From a virus: 11,164 nucleotides of DNA. Positions within the stretch are counted from its first letter, which is position 1; every line of letters starts with the position of its first letter. Below are positions 1 through 11,164 of the stretch, one piece after another. The DNA lies in the UHGV virus genome UHGV-0778032. One strand, 5' to 3'. Both the position numbers and the translations under genes were made by a program. The notes beneath the pieces were generated by a model. The model was not told the DNA's origin, did not search any database, and worked only from the letters and a program-made list of their open reading frames with translations.

Positions 1-127
1 CTTCTGAGGCATAATCGAAGGTATGGATAATCTCAAAATCACCAGTATCTGCTGGTGCATTCTTCCATCTGGAGAAGCGGGATTTTAATTGCTGGTGTGT
101 GAAGAGTTCAGCATTACGAGTTAAATC
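1..127. repeat. Left copy of perfect 127-bp terminal inverted repeat (reverse complement of 11038..11164)
   Basis: Reverse complement of 1..127 compared block by block with 11038..11164 and found identical; identity breaks at 128 versus 11037. Lies inside codons 26-68 of the outward-reading minus-strand ORF. Confidence 0.95.
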
Positions 128-205
128 TTTCCATGTTCCGTTATTCTCACGGACAAGATGACCTCTATGGCGATAAAACGCATGATAATCAAATGTGCAT
201 AGCAT
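1..205 (-). CDS. Hypothetical protein, 5' portion only (68 codons, continues past left edge)
   Basis: ATG at 205-203 overlaps the TAA stop of the upstream 96-aa ORF (TAATG, translational coupling). Open frame to position 1 (MLCTFDYHAFYRHRGHLVRENNGTWKDLTRNAELFTHQQLKSRFSRWKNAPADTGDFEIIHTFDYASE...). No family recognised. Confidence 0.5.
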   Translation of the reverse strand, partial: MLCTFDYHAFYRHRGHLVRENNGTWKDLTRNAELFTHQQLKSRFSRWKNAPADTGDFEIIHTFDYASE

Positions 206-495
206 TAAACCTCCAATTTATCAGCAAGCTTGCAAACCTTATCGCTCAAGACCTGAATCATTGAGCAGCCTGTACCTTTAGTTTGTGTTCTCAGTTCATC
301 CAATTGCTCTACTGTGATACGGATAGCCTTAGAACCCTCTGCAACGTCCTTGATAGCGTCAAACGGTGTAAGGGCTGTGTGTTCCTTCAGAATCTCACCA
401 ACAAGTGCTGTGTGGCTCATGGCTGGGTATTTGTCTTTGATTGCTGCCAGTCTGGAATATGCCTCTGGCAAAAGGCGCGTAACTGTGTGTCTCAT
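205..495 (-). CDS. Putative small DNA-binding protein with two ribbon-helix-helix-like units (96 aa)
   Basis: ATG at 495-493 with AAGGA 7 nt upstream and a consensus-like promoter. Strand-helix-helix pattern appears twice (TVTRLLPEAYSRLAAI...ALVGEIL and IRITVEQLDELRTQ...MIQVLSDKV). Assignment is by pattern only, not by search. Confidence 0.5.
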   Translation of the reverse strand: MRHTVTRLLPEAYSRLAAIKDKYPAMSHTALVGEILKEHTALTPFDAIKDVAEGSKAIRITVEQLDELRTQTKGTGCSMIQVLSDKVCKLADKLEV

Positions 496-531: not shown

Positions 532-560
532 ACTTTAACATATTTATAACATATTGTCAA
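532..560 (-). promoter_or_regulatory. Candidate sigma70-type promoter for the 96-aa gene operon
   Basis: On the minus strand: TTGACA (rc of 555-560), 17-nt spacer ATATGTTATAAATATGT ending in TGn, then TAAAGT (rc of 532-537). The spacer holds a direct repeat ATATGTT x2, a possible operator. Confidence 0.5.
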
Positions 561-582
561 CAACTCATTTACATGTTAATAT
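554..582 (+). promoter_or_regulatory. Candidate sigma70-type promoter reading rightward into the 61-aa ORF
   Basis: TTGTCA at 554-559, 17-nt spacer, TAATAT at 577-582. Its -35 hexamer overlaps the -35 of the divergent leftward promoter by 5 bp (back-to-back arrangement). Confidence 0.5.
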
Positions 583-818: not shown

Positions 819-1951
819 CGTTTTGTGATGATATTGGTGGCCCTCAGATTACCGGGGTCACCGTCTTTTAATCGTAGCTGGTGGACTGAATCCCAGATAT
901 CAAAATGAAACATCGTAGCAAACTTTAAAGCATCAATTTTTAAACCTGTTACGCCATCATAGAAGAAATAATCCCTCCCTTCCTTCTTTGGTCTAATCCG
1001 GTAAACTTTCCCTTTTCCTTTCTTCGGTTCAGTGTGGGTTTTCTTTCTTGGTGTGAAAGAAAAGTCATCATCGTCACCATCATCAAAGTCATCAAGTTCA
1101 TCAATTCTGTTCTTTAGCTTAGCCTTTCTGAATCTTTCTTTAATTTCTGCTTTACGCTGTTCACGTTTCAATTCCTCTTCAGGGTCTTCTTCATCATCAA
1201 GGTAATCATCGAAGGGGTCCATCTCATCATCAGTGGCGGGGCACTGTGTGTTTTTATGGTCACTATCAACATTCACATCAGAGATTTCTTTGTCTTGTTT
1301 AGAAGTCCTTTTAGAGCTTACTTCAAGGTCATCTAAGTCAGATGTTTTAGAAGCCTCTTTAGTAACTTCACTATCAAGGTCAGATTCATTCACAGAAAGA
1401 AAATCATTTAATTCATCCAAAGAAAGAAAATCATCTTCATTAATGCCATCATTAAGTCCAGTCTCTTTACTCTTATCTATAATATTATTATCTAATGTTT
1501 TATCTAATAACTTATCTAACACGGGTGACATTTTGTCACTACCCCCATGACATTTTGTCACTGGTAGTGGTGTCATTTTGTCACTGGTAGTGGTGTCATT
1601 TTGTCTTACTGATGCTGCAACTTCCTGTGATGTAGGTCTTACAAGTAATTCCGGCTTATCATCCAGTGTGAATACACGATAAGTGCTTTGACGCCCCTGA
1701 TTCTTTTGCACCTGAATTAAACCGTGTTTCTCAAGTGTCTCAATGGCTCTGATTGCTGTTCTCTTTGATACGCCAGCCATATAAGCGAGATGGTCAATAC
1801 TTGGTGAATATGATTTGTATTTCTCTTCATAGAAGTTACAGCTATGAACCATGACCATATAAATTAATCTTGCTGCTGCGTTAATTTCTTCTGAAAGTTG
1901 AGAGATTCGCACATCAAATTTATAAAACTGATTTGGGTTATATTTAGACAT
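815..1951 (-). CDS. Replication initiator protein, phage lambda O-like architecture (378 aa)
   Basis: ATG at 1951-1949 with GAGGT 9 nt upstream. N-terminal ~90 aa has a winged-helix/HTH-like pattern (...SKRTAIRAIETLEKHGLIQV...) resembling the replication protein O N-terminal domain, by eye. The iterons and AT-rich tract lie inside the coding sequence, followed by a highly acidic Asp/Glu-rich region. Confidence 0.6.
   Translation of the reverse strand: MSKYNPNQFYKFDVRISQLSEEINAAARLIYMVMVHSCNFYEEKYKSYSPSIDHLAYMAGVSKRTAIRAIETLEKHGLIQVQKNQGRQSTYRVFTLDDKPELLVRPTSQEVAASVRQNDTTTSDKMTPLPVTKCHGGSDKMSPVLDKLLDKTLDNNIIDKSKETGLNDGINEDDFLSLDELNDFLSVNESDLDSEVTKEASKTSDLDDLEVSSKRTSKQDKEISDVNVDSDHKNTQCPATDDEMDPFDDYLDDEEDPEEELKREQRKAEIKERFRKAKLKNRIDELDDFDDGDDDDFSFTPRKKTHTEPKKGKGKVYRIRPKKEGRDYFFYDGVTGLKIDALKFATMFHFDIWDSVHQLRLKDGDPGNLRATNIITKR
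1440..1520. other. AT-rich tract adjacent to the iterons (candidate DNA unwinding element)
   Basis: Run of A/T-rich sequence (ctataatattattatctaatgttttatctaataacttatc) immediately beside the iteron array, matching iteron-plus-AT-rich origin organisation. Functional role is inferred. Confidence 0.4.
1526..1610. repeat. Four tandem ~23-bp iterons (TGACATTTTGTCACT-like), candidate replication origin repeats
   Basis: Copies start at 1526, 1548, 1571 and 1594 (spacing 22/23/23 bp, about two helical turns). The first two contain the palindrome TGACA-TTT-TGTCA; copies 3 and 4 are preceded by identical GGTAGTGG. They are translated in frame as peptide repeats within rep. Confidence 0.7.
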
Positions 1952-2313: not shown

Positions 2314-2976
2314 TTAGCTCAACCTTTGAGCAATCCTGTATGACGTGCTCAGAGGCATTCTGAGAACATCTGCAATGTACTTAATGGGTTTTCCTTGCCT
2401 GTATAGTTTTATGAAGCCGTCGAGCGTCTCAGGTGGGTAAATGGTGGGTCTTCCTCTTAAGCCTCCTCTGTTAATGATGGTTAACGGTAGCAATGTATCA
2501 GCACAGCAAATCATCTGTGTAATTTCATGCCTGCGTGGTTCTTTTTTAAAAACAACGACTGCACTAGGAAACGGTGAACGAATAGTAAGCCCGTTATGCC
2601 CTGCTGGTGGAAGGTATTTAACTGCACGATGAAGAATACGGATTTCATGGCAAAGCGGGTTTGTGAAGATGTGCTTAAGCCAGTATATGGTTTGGGGTCG
2701 GTACGGTATCAGGAATACCGCTAAATCTGCTTCAGACGCTTTTACGAGGAATGTTTTAGTGTCGCTGTATGGTGGGTTACAGAATACCCGCTCACCATCC
2801 CATGACTGATTGCGAATATCATCGGTGAACCGTGGTAGCAATGCGTCGTGCTTAGTTGCAGCACCATCTAGCGTAAGACCAAATTCACGGTGTAAGTTCT
2901 TAAATAACAAAAATGGAGTTCTCCAGCAATCAGAACCCCCATGATGTTTCCCGATTAAAATATGCTCAATTGACAT
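2314..2976 (-). CDS. Phage-type Dam-family DNA N6-adenine methyltransferase with C-terminal resolvase-like HTH (220 aa)
   Basis: Motifs WRTP, CNPPYS (NPPY catalytic motif of amino-methyltransferases) and FPSAVVVF in the order expected for phage Dam methyltransferases. C-terminal ~50 aa (GRPTIYPPETLDGFIKLYRQGKPIKYIADVLRMPLSTSYRIAQRL) resembles the HTH of small serine recombinases. ATG at 2976-2974; no obvious SD. Confidence 0.7.
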   Translation of the reverse strand: MSIEHILIGKHHGGSDCWRTPFLLFKNLHREFGLTLDGAATKHDALLPRFTDDIRNQSWDGERVFCNPPYSDTKTFLVKASEADLAVFLIPYRPQTIYWLKHIFTNPLCHEIRILHRAVKYLPPAGHNGLTIRSPFPSAVVVFKKEPRRHEITQMICCADTLLPLTIINRGGLRGRPTIYPPETLDGFIKLYRQGKPIKYIADVLRMPLSTSYRIAQRLS

Positions 2977-3223
2977 AAGAAATAAAAATTTTTATTGCAA
3001 TCACTCTTGACAAGGTTTACTCTCTTTTAAGAGATACTTAACAGGTTTTCTAAACGGATATCCTTTCTGGGATATCTATCTTTTATCTTAAAAGTTTTTA
3101 CAGATACTTTAAAGATATCTGTATTAAATCTGTACAGTAACTTTTCAGAGTCTGAAAATTTTTATAAAAAATGACTAGCCCTCTTTGAATCTCATCTTCC
3201 CCGAATCTTCGAAAATATCTGAC

Positions 3224-3259
3224 TAGTTGATTCGGTTAGTTGGGCTTGTACCAACCCCT
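3224..3259. repeat. Composite site: X (3224-3241, TAGTTGATTCGGTTAGTT) overlapping Y (3238-3259, AGTTGGGCTTGTACCAACCCCT) by AGTT
   Basis: X has a perfect 18-bp inverted partner at 3730-3747; Y has a 21/22 inverted partner at 4031-4052. Both found by direct reverse-complement comparison. Confidence 0.85.
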
Positions 3260-3716
3260 AATCTACCTCATGATGTCTGTAGCTGCTAAGTACCCGTCAC
3301 ACCAGCTATGTGACCCCCTTTGCAGAATTTTAAAATATCTATTGACTTTCTTCATAGTATCTGTTAACTCCACCTCAAGAAACCTTCATCACACTTCAAA
3401 GCATCTATCAAGAAGATTTAACCTATCAATAGCTGTAACATTTTATAGCTCTGTGAAGTCCTGCCCAGTTTTCTCTGTAACAGCTACAAACTTCTGTGAC
3501 CTTATATGTCAATGACTTACAAGACATGCTCTCAAGGTGCTGTATAGCCACTTATCTTCAAATACACAAAACCCTTATAAATCAGTACTGATACATATAC
3601 AGTGTGTTTTTAACATAATAGCTGTTTTACGCACTAATCGTGTTCTACATGAAATCTGTATAGATATTAAGGTGTCTGTAAGTGATTTTTTAAGAGGAAC
3701 TACGAAGGAACTATGA

Positions 3717-3747
3717 GGTTGATTCCTAGAACTAACCGAATCAACTA
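3717..3747. repeat. Inverted copy of X (3730-3747) inside a palindromic site GGTTGATTC-N12-GAATCAACT
   Basis: AACTAACCGAATCAACTA is the exact reverse complement of 3224-3241. The flanking sequence makes an imperfect palindrome, with a direct repeat GGAACTA x2 just upstream (3696-3714). Confidence 0.85.
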
Positions 3748-4030
3748 TAACCATCACCTCCTAACTTTCACATAGCTGATTGTTATCTCTTGCAACTGTA
3801 ACGTATGGTGACCAACTGCATGAATAGCGTTATATACTCCTGTATATAGCACTTTTCTAGGAGTCGAGAGAGGGACGACTAACACCCTGCATAGTTCCCT
3901 GAAAAGAGACTTTACAGATTCTTTATATATTTCAATAAGTTAGGATAAAAAGGGGCTATGTCGATACTGCGTAGAATCTGTGTAAAACTGCTTAGATATT
4001 TGAAGAAATACCGTTAAATTGCATAGTCAT

Positions 4031-4052
4031 AGGGGTTGGAACAAGCCCAACT
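4031..4052. repeat. Inverted copy of Y (21/22 identity)
   Basis: AGGGGTTGGAACAAGCCCAACT equals the reverse complement of 3238-3259 with one mismatch; 158 bp upstream of the recombinase start. Confidence 0.85.
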
Positions 4053-4209
4053 ACACCTGTTTATGTCCTGTTATTAACAGGTTTCTTAGAAAACCGAATA
4101 GACTTCATTCAAGGGTCATTGTATTGTAGCTATTCGGCATTGTAGCATTAGCCATAACGTTTATAAGTTCATCTTTAAATGATAATCAATTGCATGGGAG
4201 TTTATCACC

Positions 4210-6609: not shown

Positions 6610-6682
6610 TCTGTTAAGCGTGAGCTACGTGAAAAATAATTTTTGGTGGGTATATCTGTTCAGGAGATTTCACGTAGCACAC
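6610..6682 (-). repeat. Copy A of conserved 73-bp dyad element (GCTACGTGAAA ... TTTCACGTAGC arms)
   Basis: 71/73 identical to 8845-8917 in the same orientation. Lies 14 nt after the tape-measure stop and about 75 nt upstream of the next gene start. Confidence 0.9.
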
Positions 6683-6696
6683 GGATATATAAGAAA

Positions 6697-8844: not shown

Positions 8845-8917
8845 TCTGTTAAGCGTGAGCTACGTAAAAAATAATTTTTGGTGGGTATATCTGTTCAGAA
8901 GATTTCACGTAGCACAC
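8845..8917 (-). repeat. Copy B of conserved 73-bp dyad element, immediately upstream of the tape-measure gene
   Basis: 71/73 identical to 6610-6682. Its gene-proximal end runs directly into the SD of the tape-measure gene. Confidence 0.9.
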
Positions 8918-8927
8918 ATACAAAAAA

Positions 8928-8964
8928 GGGAGAAACTACCGAATAATATCGATAATCTCTCCCC
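8928..8964 (-). terminator. Candidate terminator (minus strand) between the 71-aa gene and copy B
   Basis: GGGAGA (8928-8933) pairs with TCTCCC (8958-8963) and is followed on the minus strand by TTTTTTG. The loop is long (24 nt), so this is weak. Confidence 0.3.
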
Positions 8965-9012: not shown

Positions 9013-9228
9013 TTAATGCCTGACAAGATAATGTAGTTCCGTTTCACCTATAATTTGAGCATCGGAAGGGATACGGTCGATACACCACTTTGGAATCTTG
9101 CGTGTTTTTGGTTTGCGTGAGGTGATAATTTGATGTTTGGTTTTAATTCTTAAGGCTGGCTTAGTTTGTAACTTTAAGTTTTCACAAACAGACTTAATAG
9201 TTTCATAGCGTTCTGTTAAATCAATCAT
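9013..9228 (-). CDS. Hypothetical small basic protein (71 aa)
   Basis: ATG at 9228-9226 with GAGGTGA 4 nt upstream; Lys/Arg-rich middle; 22-nt gap from the upstream 234-aa gene suggests an operon. No family recognised. Confidence 0.5.
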   Translation of the reverse strand: MIDLTERYETIKSVCENLKLQTKPALRIKTKHQIITSRKPKTRKIPKWCIDRIPSDAQIIGETELHYLVRH

Positions 9229-9250
9229 TCATCACCTCACATATGCATAA

Positions 9251-9955
9251 TTAAACAGCCTTGCTAAATTCTCGTGGAACACTCAGAAAATCATTGAAGC
9301 TGATAATCTGTGCCAACTCTTGACGGTACTCCTTAGCCAGCGCTTGATGGTCACTAATCAGCTTAGCCAGTCTTGATTTCAGCAAATTAATCTCATTTTC
9401 TCTTGCTTTCATCAGTTTCTCTTTGGCAATTTCTTCAAGCTCAGCTTGTGATTTATCAGCAACAATTAGAGACAGTCGATGTGGTGCTCTGACAGCTCTT
9501 TCTGTACGAACAACTCTTTGACCTTCTGGTAAATCTGCAATCACTTTACCAATCTCTACAGGGTCATACCCCCAACCATCACGGTCTAGTCGAGAGAAAT
9601 AAGCATAAGAATTGGTTTGAAGCTCCATCAAAATAGCCATTTCGTCGATTTCGTCTTCAAGCTTGGACTGAATTTTCTCGTAAACACTTCTCATTGCTTC
9701 TTGAGAGTCTCGAAGGTCTTTGAAATATTTGCGTTGCAGCTTCAGTTTCAAATCAAGCTCACATTCCTCATTCATCGAAAAATCAATTTCAACTCTTGGA
9801 ATCTCGATTGGTTCTGGTGGAATATATGGACCTTTATTTACTTCGTGCGATTCCCGCCAAGCTCTATCAAAAGATTCACGCAAAGTTAATTCGTGAATAT
9901 CAAGTGCACTTGGTCTGTTCTCAACAATCATTTCGTGTTCATTACGAATGGACAT
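9251..9955 (-). CDS. Hypothetical protein (234 aa), charged and predicted helical
   Basis: ATG at 9955-9953 with AGAGGA 8 nt upstream. Long uninterrupted frame, Glu/Lys/Arg-rich with coiled-coil-like C-terminus. No family recognised. Confidence 0.6.
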   Translation of the reverse strand: MSIRNEHEMIVENRPSALDIHELTLRESFDRAWRESHEVNKGPYIPPEPIEIPRVEIDFSMNEECELDLKLKLQRKYFKDLRDSQEAMRSVYEKIQSKLEDEIDEMAILMELQTNSYAYFSRLDRDGWGYDPVEIGKVIADLPEGQRVVRTERAVRAPHRLSLIVADKSQAELEEIAKEKLMKARENEINLLKSRLAKLISDHQALAKEYRQELAQIISFNDFLSVPREFSKAV

Positions 9956-10093
9956 TAATATTTTCCTCTTCTAAGATAATTTATGTTTCAGTTTTTAAAA
10001 AGCACACCTGACATCCTACAAACTTAGAAGAGACTTAAAAGGCGGTTTGCCAAGTATGCTTTTTAAAAGCTGAAAAAAGCCCTAAACATAGGT

Positions 10094-10117
10094 GATTCGG
10101 ATATTCTAGGAATCATC
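10094..10117. repeat. Diverged inverted copy of the 3717-3747 site (GATTCGG-N4-TCTAGGAATCA)
   Basis: Shares GATTCGG plus an exact 11-mer TTCTAGGAATC (10104-10114) with the reverse complement of 3721-3747. Sits in the long intergenic region upstream of the 234-aa gene. Confidence 0.5.
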
Positions 10118-10214
10118 CTCATCTGTGAAGGGCTTTGAAGGTTTGCTTTAACGTTAACGAAGTTTCAGGAAAAACTTTCTTTAAAAGCTCTGTTTAAAAA
10201 CTCTTAAAGAAAAC

Positions 10215-10235
10215 GCCCTAATCATGAGTTAGGGC
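10215..10235 (-). terminator. Candidate rho-independent terminator (minus strand)
   Basis: GCCCTAA-TCATGAG-TTAGGGC hairpin followed on the minus strand by GTTTTCTTT. Located about 300 nt downstream of the 143-aa ORF stop. Confidence 0.4.
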
Positions 10236-10539
10236 AAAGCTGTAAGGGTTCAATAATGAATGATTAAGCACTTTTTGAGATGACCTCTCAGACTAAACTG
10301 AAAGGCCATGACGAAAAGCATTGCACCTTTCCAATCAGAATATAGTTATCATCGATGTAGAGACGATTAATATTTTAATTCAAGGAGAATTGCTCTCCCT
10401 ATATATACAATTATGTCATGCTCAAGGTTATTTGTCAACAGCTTTTTAACAGATTGGTAACATCAATTCTTATTTACTGTGTTACCCATCCAGCAACCAA
10501 CAAATAACCCTAAAGCCGTCCAGAGAATAACGAGCGTCA

Positions 10540-10971
10540 TTACATAACCTCGCTGTAAGGGTTTAATTCCTGTTGAAAGGTCAGGAATACATTCAACTTC
10601 AATAGTTGCTCTGGGCTTAAATCAAGTCGATTGCACTCTTCAATGATAAAGCGCTTACTGTATGGGTCTGTTACTTCCAACTTGTGAACATAGTCACCAA
10701 GTTTAATTTCGTTGATGGTGCGTTTGTCGATATAACTTGAAGCTTCAAAGCAATGCAGGAAACAGATATTAAAGCCCGACCTGTTCAGGTCAATCAACCA
10801 ATTCATAGTTTCTTGGTCAACCATAATTTGCATTGGGTAATTGTTCATTTTTAGATTTCCCATAAAACACATCTCAGACCTCTTAAAATAGCCATTCTGA
10901 GGCCAGTAACCATGCGGGTTACAGAGGGAGTTGCACTGGCTGGTAAGGTAATTTATCAAATTAAGGTGCAA
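10540..10971 (-). CDS. Hypothetical protein (ORF-track 143 aa; likely 110 aa from internal ATG)
   Basis: The ORF-track start at 10971 is TTG with no SD. The in-frame ATG at 10872-10870 has AAGAGG 6 nt upstream and is the more plausible start. No family recognised. Confidence 0.5.
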   Translation of the reverse strand: MHLNLINYLTSQCNSLCNPHGYWPQNGYFKRSEMCFMGNLKMNNYPMQIMVDQETMNWLIDLNRSGFNICFLHCFEASSYIDKRTINEIKLGDYVHKLEVTDPYSKRFIIEECNRLDLSPEQLLKLNVFLTFQQELNPYSEVM

Positions 10972-10983
10972 CTCTGCCTGTAA

Positions 10984-11164
10984 AGTGCATTCTACCGTTA
11001 CTTAGATGGTTATTTTGAATTGTCTTTATTAATCAATGATTTAACTCGTAATGCTGAACTCTTCACACACCAGCAATTAAAATCCCGCTTCTCCAGATGG
11101 AAGAATGCACCAGCAGATACTGGTGATTTTGAGATTATCCATACCTTCGATTATGCCTCAGAAG
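10984..11164 (+). pseudogene. Start-less, promoter-less inverted partial copy of the left-edge gene
   Basis: Open + frame from the TAA at 10981-10983 to the window end. The last 42 codons are identical to codons 26-68 of the left-edge gene, but the 18 codons upstream differ and hold no ATG/GTG or SD. May be silent, or expressed only after rearrangement. Confidence 0.4.
11038..11164. repeat. Right copy of perfect 127-bp terminal inverted repeat (reverse complement of 1..127)
   Basis: Same comparison as the left copy; in frame within an open + strand frame that runs off the right edge. Confidence 0.95.

What the first reader, a model, noticed from the sequence alone, without database searches (positions are those of the whole stretch)
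9013..10971. Unknown gene trio and a 580-bp structured intergenic region
Three ORFs (234, 71 and 143/110 aa) match nothing I recognise. The 9956-10539 intergenic region is unusually long and contains a terminator-like hairpin (10215-10235), the AGCTTTTTAAAAGCT palindrome (10050-10064), a long-range pairing AAAGCCCT/AGGGCTTT (10076-10136) and the site-like repeat at 10094-10117. It could encode a small RNA or carry regulatory or recombination sites. Such clusters of small unknown genes are typical of accessory (defence, anti-defence or moron) cargo.
Basis: inference. Interest (0 to 1): 0.4.

Follow-up and report, generated by a model that had tools for sequence, protein, structure and literature searches.

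The report
RNA control region of phage satellite
The apparently empty 580 bases are a strongly conserved RNA control region (a promoter, a small structured RNA, terminators, and a hairpin that hides a ribosome-binding site) that gates two unknown genes beside tail genes in a common E. coli mobile element that looks like a parasite of Felix O1-type phages.

Summary

**What the region contains.** Every feature is on the minus strand:
- a 102-aa tandem ribbon-helix-helix (RHH) protein, not 143/110 aa
- an overlooked, conserved 25-aa membrane-peptide ORF
- a near-invariant sigma-70 promoter flanked by phased TGTTA repeats
- a ~200-nt structured RNA holding a 20-mer invariant in the relatives found without using it as a probe
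- one or two intrinsic terminators
- a 90-nt 5'-UTR hairpin whose loop pairs with the Shine-Dalgarno (SD) sequence of the 234-aa gene

**Evidence for RNA structure.** The hairpins show compensatory changes across about 110 distinct relatives. Many G·U pairs work only in minus-strand RNA. There is no Rfam match.

**The genes.** The trio is not cargo. It sits with the tape-measure and Dit-like genes in 57–59 of 59 loci of an ~11-kb integrative element. That element occurs in about 10% of complete E. coli genomes and borrows tail genes from lytic Felixounavirus.
- The 234-aa protein is a lineage-restricted coiled-coil hairpin of unknown function.
- The 71-aa protein stays unknown.

**Most likely mechanism.** Termination and SD occlusion keep the 234/71 operon silent until an unidentified signal arrives, presumably from a helper phage. 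That trigger, and any trans role for the RNA, remain untested.

The parts
10540..10848 (-). 102-aa protein, a single-chain tandem ribbon-helix-helix (RHH) DNA binder.
10463..10540 (-). 25-aa hydrophobic small ORF (MTLVILWTALGLFVGCWMGNTVNKN). It overlaps the stop codon of the 102-aa gene (TAATG), which suggests translational coupling.
   Evidence: The ORF was found in 92 of 111 distinct relatives as a 25-aa or 21-aa hydrophobic peptide. Identical peptides are encoded by up to 7 different nucleotide sequences. The TAATG context occurs in 86 of them. It is also present in the distant relatives L130 and L132.
10435..10462 (-). Three TGTTR repeats at 11-bp phasing (TGTTAccaatcTGTTAaaaagcTGTTGA). 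The last repeat overlaps the -35 hexamer. Candidate operator.
   Evidence: In the window the motif occurs only here and at a second promoter, 536-562: 4 pair matches against 0.23 expected, with 0 of 200 shuffles reaching that. It is conserved at this position in most loci. The same phased motif is clustered in Felixounavirus VpaE1.
10410..10438 (-). Sigma-70 promoter TTGACA-17-(TG)CATAAT
   Evidence: It matches 11 of 12 consensus positions and has an extended -10. It is invariant in the 17-locus alignment. It is among the most conserved stretches of the whole element in 58 long loci.
10382..10400 (-). 5' stem-loop SL1, immediately after the predicted transcription start
   Evidence: A hairpin is kept in variants whose stem sequences differ (GGGAGAG/CUCUCC, AGAGAG/CUCUCU, GGAAGAG/UUUUUCC).
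10312..10331 (-). 20-mer GAAAGGTGCAATGCTTTTCG, invariant in the relatives found without it
   Evidence: It is invariant in 17 loci that were found without using it as a probe. It is flanked by variable sequence. It can form its own 7-bp mini-hairpin, or its 3' half can form the base of HP2. A more distant relative keeps only the core GTGCAATGCTT.
10270..10319 (-). Hairpin HP2: lower stem GCUUUU/AAAAGU plus a 10-13-bp upper stem
   Evidence: All 32 distinct sequence variants fold into the same architecture, with z of -2.8 to -7.5. RNAalifold predicts 16 pairs, 6 of them with changes on both sides.
10206..10235 (-). Intrinsic terminator T1 (GCCCUAA-loop-UUAGGGC plus a U-run)
   Evidence: The terminator scan finds it. 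It is present in 77 of 112 distinct relatives and cleanly deleted in the others.
10073..10136 (-). Second terminator-like hairpin T2 (AAAGCCCU...AGGGCUUU plus a U-run).
   Evidence: The arms are exact. The hairpin occurs in about 100 of 112 relatives. The base pair varies in a compensating way between AAAGCCCT/AGGGCTTT and ATAGCCCT/AGGGCTAT. The insertion is a copy of the unit at 3712-3748.
9986..10075 (-). Long 5'-UTR hairpin of the 234-aa gene
   Evidence: Arms are 28 nt. RNAalifold predicts 20 pairs. 96.4% of cells are paired, 13 pairs change on both sides, and 0 of 500 shuffles reach this; slid controls give 39-50%. 69 of 500 cells are G·U, which is valid only on the minus strand. Five sequence types A-E all fold, with deltaG of -25 to -44 kcal/mol.
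10023..10032 (-). Anti-SD sequence CUCUUCUAAG in the apical loop of the UTR hairpin
   Evidence: It pairs with the SD region over 9-12 continuous bp in all five types. Cognate duplexes are -14 to -19 kcal/mol. Pairings across the two SD classes are weaker, -6 to -13 kcal/mol.
9964..9975 (-). Shine-Dalgarno region CUUAGAAGAGGA of the 234-aa gene (ATG at 9955)
   Evidence: It is complementary to the loop anti-SD. In types C and E both sides change together: UUCACCUC pairs with GAGGUGAA.
9251..9955 (-). 234-aa protein. Residues 1-58 are disordered. The rest is an antiparallel coiled-coil hairpin with a small alpha/beta tip domain. Function unknown.
9013..9228 (-). 71-aa basic protein with its own SD. 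Function unknown.
   Evidence: It is conserved at 48-84% identity, with invariant R, W-C, D and P positions. No family or PDB sequence match.
8921..8964 (-). Strong intrinsic terminator that closes the 234/71 cassette
   Evidence: 16-pair stem followed by a T-run.

Best explanation
The finding is the regulatory core of a conserved module in an ~11-kb integrative element that looks like a phage satellite. The element carries tape-measure (TMP) and Dit-like tail genes of the Felixounavirus type.

**Layout, reading the minus strand**
1. A tandem-RHH DNA-binding protein (102 aa) and a translationally coupled 25-aa membrane peptide come first.
2. Next is a near-invariant, near-consensus sigma-70 promoter overlapped by phased TGTTA repeats.
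3. The promoter transcribes a structured leader: a 5' stem-loop, a variable stretch, a 20-mer invariant in the relatives found without using it as a probe, and hairpin HP2.
4. The leader mostly ends at one or two intrinsic terminators (T1, T2). The default product is therefore a ~200-330-nt small RNA.
5. Transcripts that read through enter a 90-nt hairpin. Its apical loop base-pairs with the Shine-Dalgarno (SD) region of the 234-aa gene in a pseudoknot-type occlusion.

**Consequence.** The 234-aa/71-aa cassette, itself closed by a strong terminator, is held off at both transcription and translation.

**Shown**
- the sequence elements themselves
- their conservation
- covariation in the helices
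- strand-specific G·U pairs
- co-variation between anti-SD and SD
- the RHH fold of the 102-aa protein
- synteny of the trio with the tail genes

**Inferred**
- that the promoter is active and the terminators work
- that relief needs a signal delivered on helper infection, such as antitermination, cleavage or melting of the hairpin, or a TGTTA-binding protein
- that the 234/71 proteins act with the adjacent tape-measure and Dit proteins in helper tail assembly
For: **Promoter and conservation**
- The promoter matches 11 of 12 consensus positions with an extended -10, and T1 is found on the same strand.
- The promoter and the 20-mer are invariant in 17 independently retrieved loci.
- The promoter is among the most conserved 14-mers of the whole element across 58 long loci.
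- The non-coding stretch is alignable at 75-96% nucleotide identity in loci whose 234-aa gene gives no blastn match. Across types, protein identity is only 25-29% for the 234-aa protein and 25-36% for the 102-aa protein.

**RNA structure**
- Folding z-scores are -4.8 and -4.6.
- HP2: 32 variants fold into one architecture, with 6 compensatory pairs.
- UTR hairpin: 20 pairs, 13 of them changed on both sides, 96.4% of cells paired, 0 of 500 shuffles as good, slid controls 39-50%. 69 of 500 cells are G·U.
- Anti-SD and SD pair in all five UTR types, and the two SD classes change together.

**Terminators.** At least one terminator-like hairpin lies between the promoter and the UTR in 103 of 111 relatives by a strict pattern. 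At least some of the other 8 (for example L030) carry a variant GCCCT...AGGGC plus U-run hairpin.

**Synteny**
- The trio, TMP and Dit co-occur in 57-59 of 59 loci.
- The same order holds in distant relatives, with a ~460-530-nt gap in the same place.

**Proteins and repeats**
- The 102-aa protein has an RHH fold.
- TGTTR repeats occur only at two promoters in the window and are clustered in a Felixounavirus genome.
Against: - No transcription data exist, so the start site, termination efficiency and RNA abundance are all unverified.
- T1 is absent from about a third of relatives.
- In this window T2 has a 45-nt loop, which is unusual for a terminator.
- No activating factor has been identified.
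- The UTR hairpin and the anti-SD/SD helix form a pseudoknot that folding programs cannot score.
- The invariance of the 20-mer is unexplained by this model. In loci L017 onward it is also circular, because the 20-mer was the search probe.
- The RHH proteins vary while the putative operator does not. Only the beta-strand residues are conserved.
- The helper relationship rests on homology of two tail genes. No mobilisation has been observed.
Confidence: 0.7

Rival explanations
1. The ~200-nt terminated transcript is mainly an autonomous trans-acting small RNA. Its invariant single-stranded core would be a seed that targets host or helper-phage mRNAs. This would resemble prophage sRNAs or the sRNA reported for Vibrio PLE satellites. 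On this view the UTR hairpin is a separate, unrelated element. This explanation does not exclude the best one.
For: - A strong conserved promoter is paired with an intrinsic terminator.
- An invariant 20-mer sits between variable, structured flanks.
- An A/U-rich stretch lies next to the terminator.
- The 5' part is mosaic, with indels, around a fixed core.
Against: - Complementarity to the Felixounavirus VpaE1 genome is no better than for shuffled sequences. The longest exact match is 11 nt, against 11-16 nt in the shuffles.
- No significant pairing was found with any translation-initiation region of the element.
- The host genome could not be scanned.
- No Rfam family matches.
Confidence: 0.35
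2. The palindromes and repeats are DNA sites: operators, recombination sites, packaging sites or origin sites, not RNA structures.
For: - The phased TGTTR repeats look like protein-binding sites. They recur at a second promoter and in a helper-like phage.
- The element encodes RHH proteins.
- The insertion in the T2 loop is a repeated ~35-nt palindromic unit.
Against: - In the long inverted repeat, 13.8% of paired cells are G·U. These would be A·C mismatches in DNA or on the other strand.
- Five unrelated arm sequences keep the pairing.
- The loop sequence co-varies with the SD of the downstream gene, which makes sense only in RNA.
- The replication iterons lie elsewhere, at 1524-1593.
Confidence: 0.15
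3. This is RNA-based immunity of the P4 CI / P1 c4 type. A small RNA processed from the leader would pair with complementary sequences further along the same transcript. That pairing would force termination or block a ribosome-binding site.
For: - The layout fits: a constitutive promoter, a leader RNA, terminators, and then the genes.
- The element appears to lack a classical cI-type repressor.
Against: - Rfam's C4 family does not match, even at E<=1.
- The anti-SD is supplied in cis by the hairpin loop.
Confidence: 0.08
4. The trio is accessory cargo (defence, anti-defence or moron genes), or a type I toxin-antitoxin pair formed by the hydrophobic peptide and the sRNA.
For: - The genes are small and unknown.
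- A hydrophobic 25-aa peptide lies next to an sRNA-like gene.
Against: - The genes are core and syntenic in 57-59 of 59 loci and in distant relatives.
- No PADLOC match.
- The sRNA shows no complementarity to the peptide's initiation region: -7.0 kcal/mol, z +1.8.
- The peptide has no 5' UTR of its own, because it is coupled to the RHH gene.
Confidence: 0.07

Closest known systems
SD-sequestering 5'-UTR hairpins and terminator-gated leaders of phage and plasmid operons. One example is the lambda N leader, where RNase III cleavage relieves occlusion of the ribosome-binding site (own knowledge).
   Same: - A long leader follows a constitutive promoter.
- Intrinsic terminators precede the gene.
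- A stable helix makes the ribosome-binding site inaccessible.
- The >20-bp stem is the kind of substrate RNase III cuts (inference).
   Different: - The anti-SD lies in the apical loop of a 20-39-bp hairpin and pairs with an SD about 50 nt downstream. That is a pseudoknot, not a simple stem.
- Two terminators and an sRNA-like module lie upstream.
- There is no sequence or Rfam relationship.
- No processing has been shown.
P4 CI RNA and P1/P7 c4 antisense RNA (Rfam C4 family; own knowledge of how they work)
   Same: A satellite or phage element in which a leader-derived small RNA and premature termination keep downstream genes off.
   Different: - The covariance model does not match.
- No trans-pairing boxes were found.
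- Occlusion is built in cis.
Vibrio cholerae PLE satellites and their sRNA (own knowledge; PLE papers are listed but were not read for this point)
   Same: - An integrative element of about 11-18 kb with a large serine recombinase and its own replication initiator.
- It parasitises, or appears to parasitise, a strictly lytic myovirus.
- It carries a conserved non-coding RNA locus.
   Different: - No homology to PLE genes was tested.
- This element carries helper-type tape-measure and Dit genes.
- Its host is Escherichia.
- Helper dependence has not been shown.
TraY (F plasmid) and other single-chain tandem RHH proteins such as AvtR and DndE
   Different: - Sequence identity is 9-11%.
- No Pfam RHH model matches.
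- There is no relaxosome context.
- The DNA target is unknown; the TGTTR repeats are only a candidate.
Tail assembly chaperone pair (G/GT type) upstream of tape-measure genes, for example VpaE1 gp115/gp114
   Same: The 234-aa and 71-aa genes occupy exactly the two-gene slot upstream of the tape-measure gene. In the helper-like phage that slot holds the two chaperone genes.
   Different: - No profile similarity.
- No overlapping frameshift arrangement; the 71-aa gene has its own SD.
- The 234-aa protein is much larger than the helper's 132-aa first chaperone (gp115) and is a coiled-coil hairpin.

Membership tests
Rfam C4 antisense RNA / P4 CI RNA | Match to the family covariance model | tested here: not met
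   cmscan of the whole window at E<=1 returned only three sub-threshold chance hits (two miRNA families and one CRISPR direct repeat). None was C4.
Rfam C4 antisense RNA / P4 CI RNA | Loops of the small RNA complementary to boxes downstream in the same transcript | tested here: not met
   Duplex scan of the invariant core against the downstream leader and UTR in 8 diverse relatives gave z from -1.1 to +0.2, with no conserved target position.
Intrinsic (Rho-independent) terminator | G+C-rich stem-loop followed by a U-run on the transcribed strand | tested here: met
   T1 at 10236..10214 has 8 pairs, 4 of them G-C, followed by TTTTCTTT. The terminator after the 71-aa gene has 16 pairs. T2's arms and U-run were read from the sequence, but its loop is long in this window.
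SD-sequestering (anti-SD) translational control element | Upstream sequence complementary to the SD region, with the pairing kept by co-variation | tested here: met
   The pairing spans 9-12 bp in all five UTR types. Two SD classes (CUUAGA(A)GAGGA and GAGGUGAA) each have a matching anti-SD class. Cognate duplexes are stronger than cross-class ones. 0-9 of 500 shuffled loops did as well.
SD-sequestering (anti-SD) translational control element | Demonstrated repression of translation | not testable with these tools
   Needs reporter fusions carrying anti-SD mutations and compensatory SD mutations.
Ribbon-helix-helix superfamily (tandem, TraY-like) - 102-aa protein | Beta-alpha-alpha fold repeated twice, with the two strands paired | tested here: met
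Ribbon-helix-helix superfamily (tandem, TraY-like) - 102-aa protein | Sequence-profile match to an RHH family | tested here: not met
   No Pfam, NCBIfam or PHROG hit of note. No RHH protein among the PDB sequence matches.
Tail assembly chaperones (G/GT) - 234-aa and 71-aa proteins | Position immediately upstream of the tape-measure gene | tested here: met
   The order 234 aa, 71 aa, TMP, Dit-like mirrors VpaE1's gp115, gp114, TMP, gp112.
Tail assembly chaperones (G/GT) - 234-aa and 71-aa proteins | Homology to known chaperones, or an overlapping -1 frameshift pair | tested here: not met
   hhalign probability is 0.1% against each helper chaperone. tblastn against 50,697 phage records found nothing. 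The two ORFs are separated by 22 nt and the second has its own SD.
Phage satellite (generic) | Own integrase and replication module, with no capsid or terminase genes | tested here: met
   The element encodes a large serine recombinase, an HTH/DnaD-like initiator with iterons, and a Dam methylase. Its only structural genes are TMP and Dit-like. It is integrated between tonB and yciI.
Phage satellite (generic) | Helper-dependent induction and packaging | not testable with these tools
   Only indirect signs exist. The Dit-like gene is ~82% nucleotide-identical to Felixounavirus. TMP falls in the same PHROG. The window and L134 are circularly permuted contigs.
Anti-phage defence systems (PADLOC) | Match to a defence-protein model | tested here: not met
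   No hits for the trio, the 96-aa protein, or divergent alleles at E<=0.1.
Type I toxin-antitoxin | sRNA complementary to the mRNA of the small hydrophobic toxin | tested here: not met
   The duplex with the peptide's initiation region is -7.0 kcal/mol, z +1.8.
Transposase (PGAP's name for the 236-aa alleles) | A transposase domain or fold | tested here: not met
   No Pfam or NCBIfam transposase hit. The model is a coiled-coil hairpin. The name appears only as a source label.

The most novel reading that the evidence does not exclude
The locus may be the helper-sensing switch of a previously undescribed family of E. coli satellites that parasitise strictly lytic Felix O1-type phages.

On this reading, the near-invariant promoter carries helper-type phased TGTTA repeats. 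Together with the terminator-gated leader RNA and the pseudoknotted SD-occluding hairpin, it would detect a helper factor: a TGTTA-binding protein, an antiterminator, or an RNase activity.

Only then would the switch release the 234/71 proteins. These would redirect helper tail assembly through the satellite's own tape-measure and Dit proteins.
Probability: 0.2. Interest if true: 0.8.

Novelty: new variant of a known kind. Interest (0 to 1): 0.55.

Why it matters
- **Satellites of lytic phages.** Outside the Vibrio PLE/ICP1 pair, little is known about satellites of strictly lytic phages. This element occurs in about 10% of complete E. coli genomes and carries tail genes of the Felix O1 type. 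These phages are widely used for Salmonella and E. coli typing and biocontrol.
- **A testable control region.** The region defined here gives concrete handles on how such an element stays silent and switches on: a promoter, terminators, an anti-SD/SD pair with natural compensatory variants, and candidate operator repeats shared with the phage.
- **New features for annotation.** The work adds an RNA motif family absent from Rfam, a missed 25-aa gene, a corrected gene start, and a likely wrong "transposase" label.
- **The ordinary outcome.** If the proteins turn out to be ordinary tail chaperones and the RNA a simple attenuator, the result is a tidy annotation, not a new principle.

Tried and rejected
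**RNA family and literature searches**
- Rfam at E<=1 gave only chance hits to miRNA and CRISPR families. No tRNA or tmRNA was found.
- Literature searches for the element and for its exact sequences found nothing.
- The Felix O1 genome paper states that temporal regulation of this phage is unknown, and it does not mention TGTTA repeats.

**The 234-aa protein**
- Pfam gave only a sub-threshold DUF7384 hit. Sub-threshold NCBIfam hits to release-factor models are noise.
- tblastn against phages found nothing.
- PDB sequence search gave nothing meaningful.
- The viral fold library gave no match at E<=0.001.
- Comparison with the helper's tail chaperones was negative.

**The RHH proteins and defence**
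- Neither the 102-aa protein nor the 96-aa protein (itself only provisionally called tandem RHH, from its sequence pattern) has a tblastn homologue in phages.
- PADLOC was negative.

**RNA targets**
- No complementarity above shuffles to the VpaE1 genome, to the element's translation-initiation regions, or to the downstream leader.
- Reading the 20-mer as an SD plus start codon of a leader peptide was rejected. The ORF length is not conserved (23, 12 and 5 codons in different relatives), and the SD-ATG spacing is only 2 nt.

**Technical limits**
- MAFFT and RNAalifold on the whole sRNA core misaligned HP2. A trimmed alignment worked.
- One formal structure string could not cover the anti-SD/SD pairs, because the register differs between UTR types. 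Duplex energies were used instead.
- One 20-mer hit (L103) lies in an unrelated context and was excluded.
Full report
**Context**

The 11,164-base window is one compact mobile element. Its genes are:
- a 96-aa ORF on the minus strand
- an HTH/DnaD-like replication initiator that contains iterons
- a Dam methylase
- about 1.2 kb of non-coding DNA
- a large serine recombinase on the plus strand
- then, on the minus strand, a Dit-like baseplate gene, a 710-aa tape-measure (TMP) gene, and the three ORFs of the finding

Megablast against phages matches only the Dit-like gene, at about 82% identity to Felixounavirus. The TMP falls in the PHROG of Felix O1-type tape measures. No plasmid matches.

Related sequence is chromosomal in 565 of 5,426 complete E. 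coli genomes. In the loci examined it is typically integrated between tonB and yciI. The window is a circular permutation of the integrated form, so it represents an excised or circularly assembled copy. Its last 130 bases are an inverted duplicate of its first 130, which is probably an assembly artefact. Many metagenome contigs carrying the element are 10.6-12.2 kb long. The element therefore looks like a phage satellite of lytic Felix O1-type phages. This is an inference; no mobilisation data exist, and I found no description of it in the library.

**Checking the observation**

- The 234-aa and 71-aa ORFs are as stated.
- The third ORF is over-extended. Homologues start at MNNYPMQ, giving 102 aa at 10540-10848.
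- The terminator-like hairpin and the AAAGCCCT/AGGGCTTT pair are exact.
- The quoted 15-mer palindrome is not present as written. GCTTTTTAAAAGC lies at 10058-10070, inside a 28-nt arm of a larger inverted repeat.
- The "site-like repeat" lies in a ~30-nt insertion that many relatives lack. It duplicates a ~35-nt unit at 3712-3748.
- The gap also hides a 25-aa hydrophobic ORF (10540..10463) that overlaps the stop codon of the 102-aa gene. It was found in 92 of 111 distinct relatives, with synonymous variation.

**Collecting relatives**

I retrieved 15 diverse E. coli loci by blastn with the whole gap and one E. albertii locus. After seeing an invariant 20-mer, I retrieved 13 viral and 99 metagenome contigs by exact match to it. 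This gave 112 distinct 711-nt sequences. The invariance of the 20-mer is independent evidence only in the first 17 loci. One hit, L103, is unrelated and was excluded.

**The non-coding stretch is under stronger constraint than its flanking genes**

In several loci the gap aligns at 75-96% identity while the adjacent 234-aa gene gives no blastn match. Across types, protein identity is 25-29% for the 234-aa protein and 25-36% for the 102-aa protein. Among 58 long loci, the most widely shared 14-mers of the whole element are the promoter, the 20-mer (circular here), a 21-mer repeated upstream of TMP and Dit, and a piece of TMP.

**Anatomy on the minus strand** (coordinates verified)

| Feature | Coordinates | Key evidence |
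|---|---|---|
| Three TGTTR repeats at 11-bp phasing | 10462..10435 | Run into the -35 hexamer |
| Promoter TTGACA-17-TGnCATAAT | 10438..10410 | 11 of 12 consensus positions |
| 5' stem-loop SL1 | 10400..10382 | Kept with different stem sequences |
| Variable stretch | between SL1 and the 20-mer | Indel-rich |
| Invariant 20-mer | 10331..10312 | Invariant in 17 independent loci |
| Hairpin HP2 | 10319..10270 | 32 variants, one architecture, z -2.8 to -7.5; 16 RNAalifold pairs, 6 compensatory |
| A/U-rich stretch | between HP2 and T1 | Read from the fold |
| Terminator T1 | 10235..10206 | In 77 of 112 relatives |
| Terminator-like T2 | 10136..10073 | In about 100 of 112 relatives |
| UTR hairpin | 10075..9986 | See below |

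At least one terminator-like hairpin lies between the promoter and the UTR in 103 of 111 relatives by a strict pattern. At least some of the other 8 carry variants of it.

**The UTR hairpin**

RNAalifold independently predicts 20 pairs. 96.4% of cells are paired, 13 pairs change on both sides, no shuffle in 500 does as well, and slid controls give 39-50%. 69 of 500 cells are G·U. These would be A·C mismatches on the other strand or in DNA, so selection acts on the minus-strand RNA.

Five sequence types (A-E) all form 30-39-bp hairpins. In every type the apical loop carries 9-12 nt complementary to the SD region of the 234-aa gene. There are two SD classes, CUUAGA(A)GAGGA and GAGGUGAA, and each has a matching loop sequence. 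Cognate duplexes are -14 to -19 kcal/mol, and cross-class ones are weaker. In this window the anti-SD is at 10032..10023 and the SD at 9975..9964.

**Proteins**

*234-aa protein.* It has a disordered N-terminus and an antiparallel coiled-coil hairpin with a small alpha/beta tip. Fold searches return only generic coiled coils and prefoldin. The family has only 24 representatives among 1.84 billion clustered proteins. Its distant members sit in the same synteny, with a ~460-530-nt gap in the same place. PGAP's "transposase" label for some alleles has no support.

*71-aa protein.* It matches nothing.

*Position.* In Felixounavirus VpaE1 the two genes immediately upstream of TMP are the tail assembly chaperones. 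The 234/71 pair occupies that slot but shows no similarity to them. In 59 loci with enough flanking sequence, the 234-aa gene is present in 59, the 102-aa, 71-aa and TMP genes in 58 each, and Dit in 57.

**A lead linking the promoter to the helper**

TGTTR-N6-TGTTR occurs in the window only at the leader promoter and at 536-562. At 536-562 it overlaps a second strong promoter-like site upstream of the 96-aa gene. That is 4 matches against 0.23 expected. The triple repeat is at the leader promoter in most loci, and a second copy lies about 1.3 kb upstream in about 40 loci.

VpaE1 has 13 such phased pairs within 14011-14830, in a 1.7-kb non-coding region (15 matches against 0.78 expected). It also has a TGTTGAC...TGTTA...TGTTA arrangement between tail-fibre gene gp103 and gp102. 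What binds these repeats is unknown, and phages have no tblastn homologues of the satellite RHH proteins. The Felix O1 genome paper states that temporal control of this phage's transcription is not understood (PMC3185647).

**Mechanism**

The best-supported reading is a cis-acting control region. A constitutive promoter makes a structured RNA that mostly stops at T1 or T2. Transcripts that read through are translationally blocked, because the hairpin loop occludes the SD. The 234/71 cassette is further insulated by a strong terminator downstream. Relief presumably requires helper infection.

- *Shown:* the elements, their conservation, covariation, strand specificity, and synteny.
- *Inferred:* promoter activity, termination, and the trigger.

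The main rival is compatible with this reading: the terminated RNA may also act in trans. I found no target in VpaE1, in the element's initiation regions, or in its own downstream leader, and I could not scan the host genome. P4-CI-like immunity, DNA-site readings of the hairpins, defence cargo, and a type I toxin-antitoxin pair are each weakened by specific tests.

**Novelty and verdict**

The parts are of known kinds: promoter, terminators, anti-SD, RHH regulator. The RNA has no Rfam family, two of the three trio proteins have no recognisable relatives, and the element family appears undescribed in the sources I could search. I rate it a new variant of a known kind, with moderate to good interest. 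The interest would rise sharply if the locus proves to be the helper-sensing switch of a satellite of lytic Felix O1-type phages.

Noticed in passing
window 1-130 and 11035-11164: The two ends of the window are 99% reverse-complementary copies of each other. E. coli matches stop near 11045. This is probably an assembly fold-back artefact and not a real terminal inverted repeat.
   Followed up: partly
window 6610-6693 and 8845-8928: An 84-nt direct repeat (92% identical) sits just upstream of both the Dit-like gene and the tape-measure gene. It contains an 11-bp-stem hairpin with a 33-nt loop. Its 21-mer ACGTAGCTCACGCTTAACAGA (gene strand) is among the most conserved sequences of the whole element. 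It is absent from phage VpaE1. It may be a shared leader or a helper-responsive promoter.
   Followed up: partly
window 536-562 (minus strand): A second copy of the phased TGTTR triple repeat (TGTTGACAataTGTTAtaaataTGTTA) overlaps a strong promoter-like site (TTGACA-17-TAAAGT) upstream of the 96-aa gene. About 40 related loci share it.
   Followed up: partly
L135 (phage VpaE1, NC_027337) 14011-14830, and L136 8622-8648: The Felixounavirus genome has a 1.7-kb non-coding region between convergent genes gp025 and gp026 that is packed with (T)TGTTA(A/G) repeats at 11-bp spacing. It also has a TGTTGAC/TGTTA/TGTTA arrangement downstream of the tail-fibre gene. These repeats are not mentioned in the Felix O1 genome paper. 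They could mark an origin, a packaging site, or a regulator-binding array.
   Followed up: partly
window 3712-3748 and 10091-10122: A ~35-nt imperfectly palindromic unit (ATGAGGtTGATTCCTAGAAcTAaCCGAATCAaC) occurs in the long non-coding region upstream of the recombinase. An inverted copy sits inside the loop of terminator T2. Related pieces occur at 3216-3262 and 4022-4060. It behaves like a small insertion or a repeated protein-binding site.
   Followed up: partly
window 2977-4209: A 1.2-kb stretch with no credible ORF lies between the Dam methylase and the serine recombinase. It has long inverted repeats (3237-3260/4030-4053 and 3224-3241/3730-3747). Because the window is a circular permutation of the integrated form, this stretch should contain attP.
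   Followed up: no
window 1524-1593: Three 22-23-bp direct repeats (GGTGACATTTTGTCACT...) lie inside the replication-initiator gene. These are probably the origin iterons.
   Followed up: no
window 205-495 (minus strand): From its sequence pattern alone, the 96-aa ORF also looks like a tandem RHH protein, with two strand-helix-helix segments. It has no database match, and no structure was predicted for it.
   Followed up: no
L002, L005, L006 and others; P0042-P0160: NCBI's pipeline names many 235-236-aa alleles of the 234-aa protein 'transposase'. Nothing in sequence profiles or in the predicted fold supports this, so it looks like a propagated misnomer.
   Followed up: yes
L007, L008, L009, L016 (between the 102-aa-type gene and the replication genes): The segment upstream of the RHH gene is a variable slot. 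Different relatives carry an HNH endonuclease, a 141-aa ORF, or small unknown ORFs there, and they have different replication modules. This slot, not the trio, looks like the cargo region.
   Followed up: no
window 2314-2976: The Dam-type methylase has a weak C-terminal resolvase-type HTH match (HTH_7, E=0.004). This is an unusual combination.
   Followed up: no
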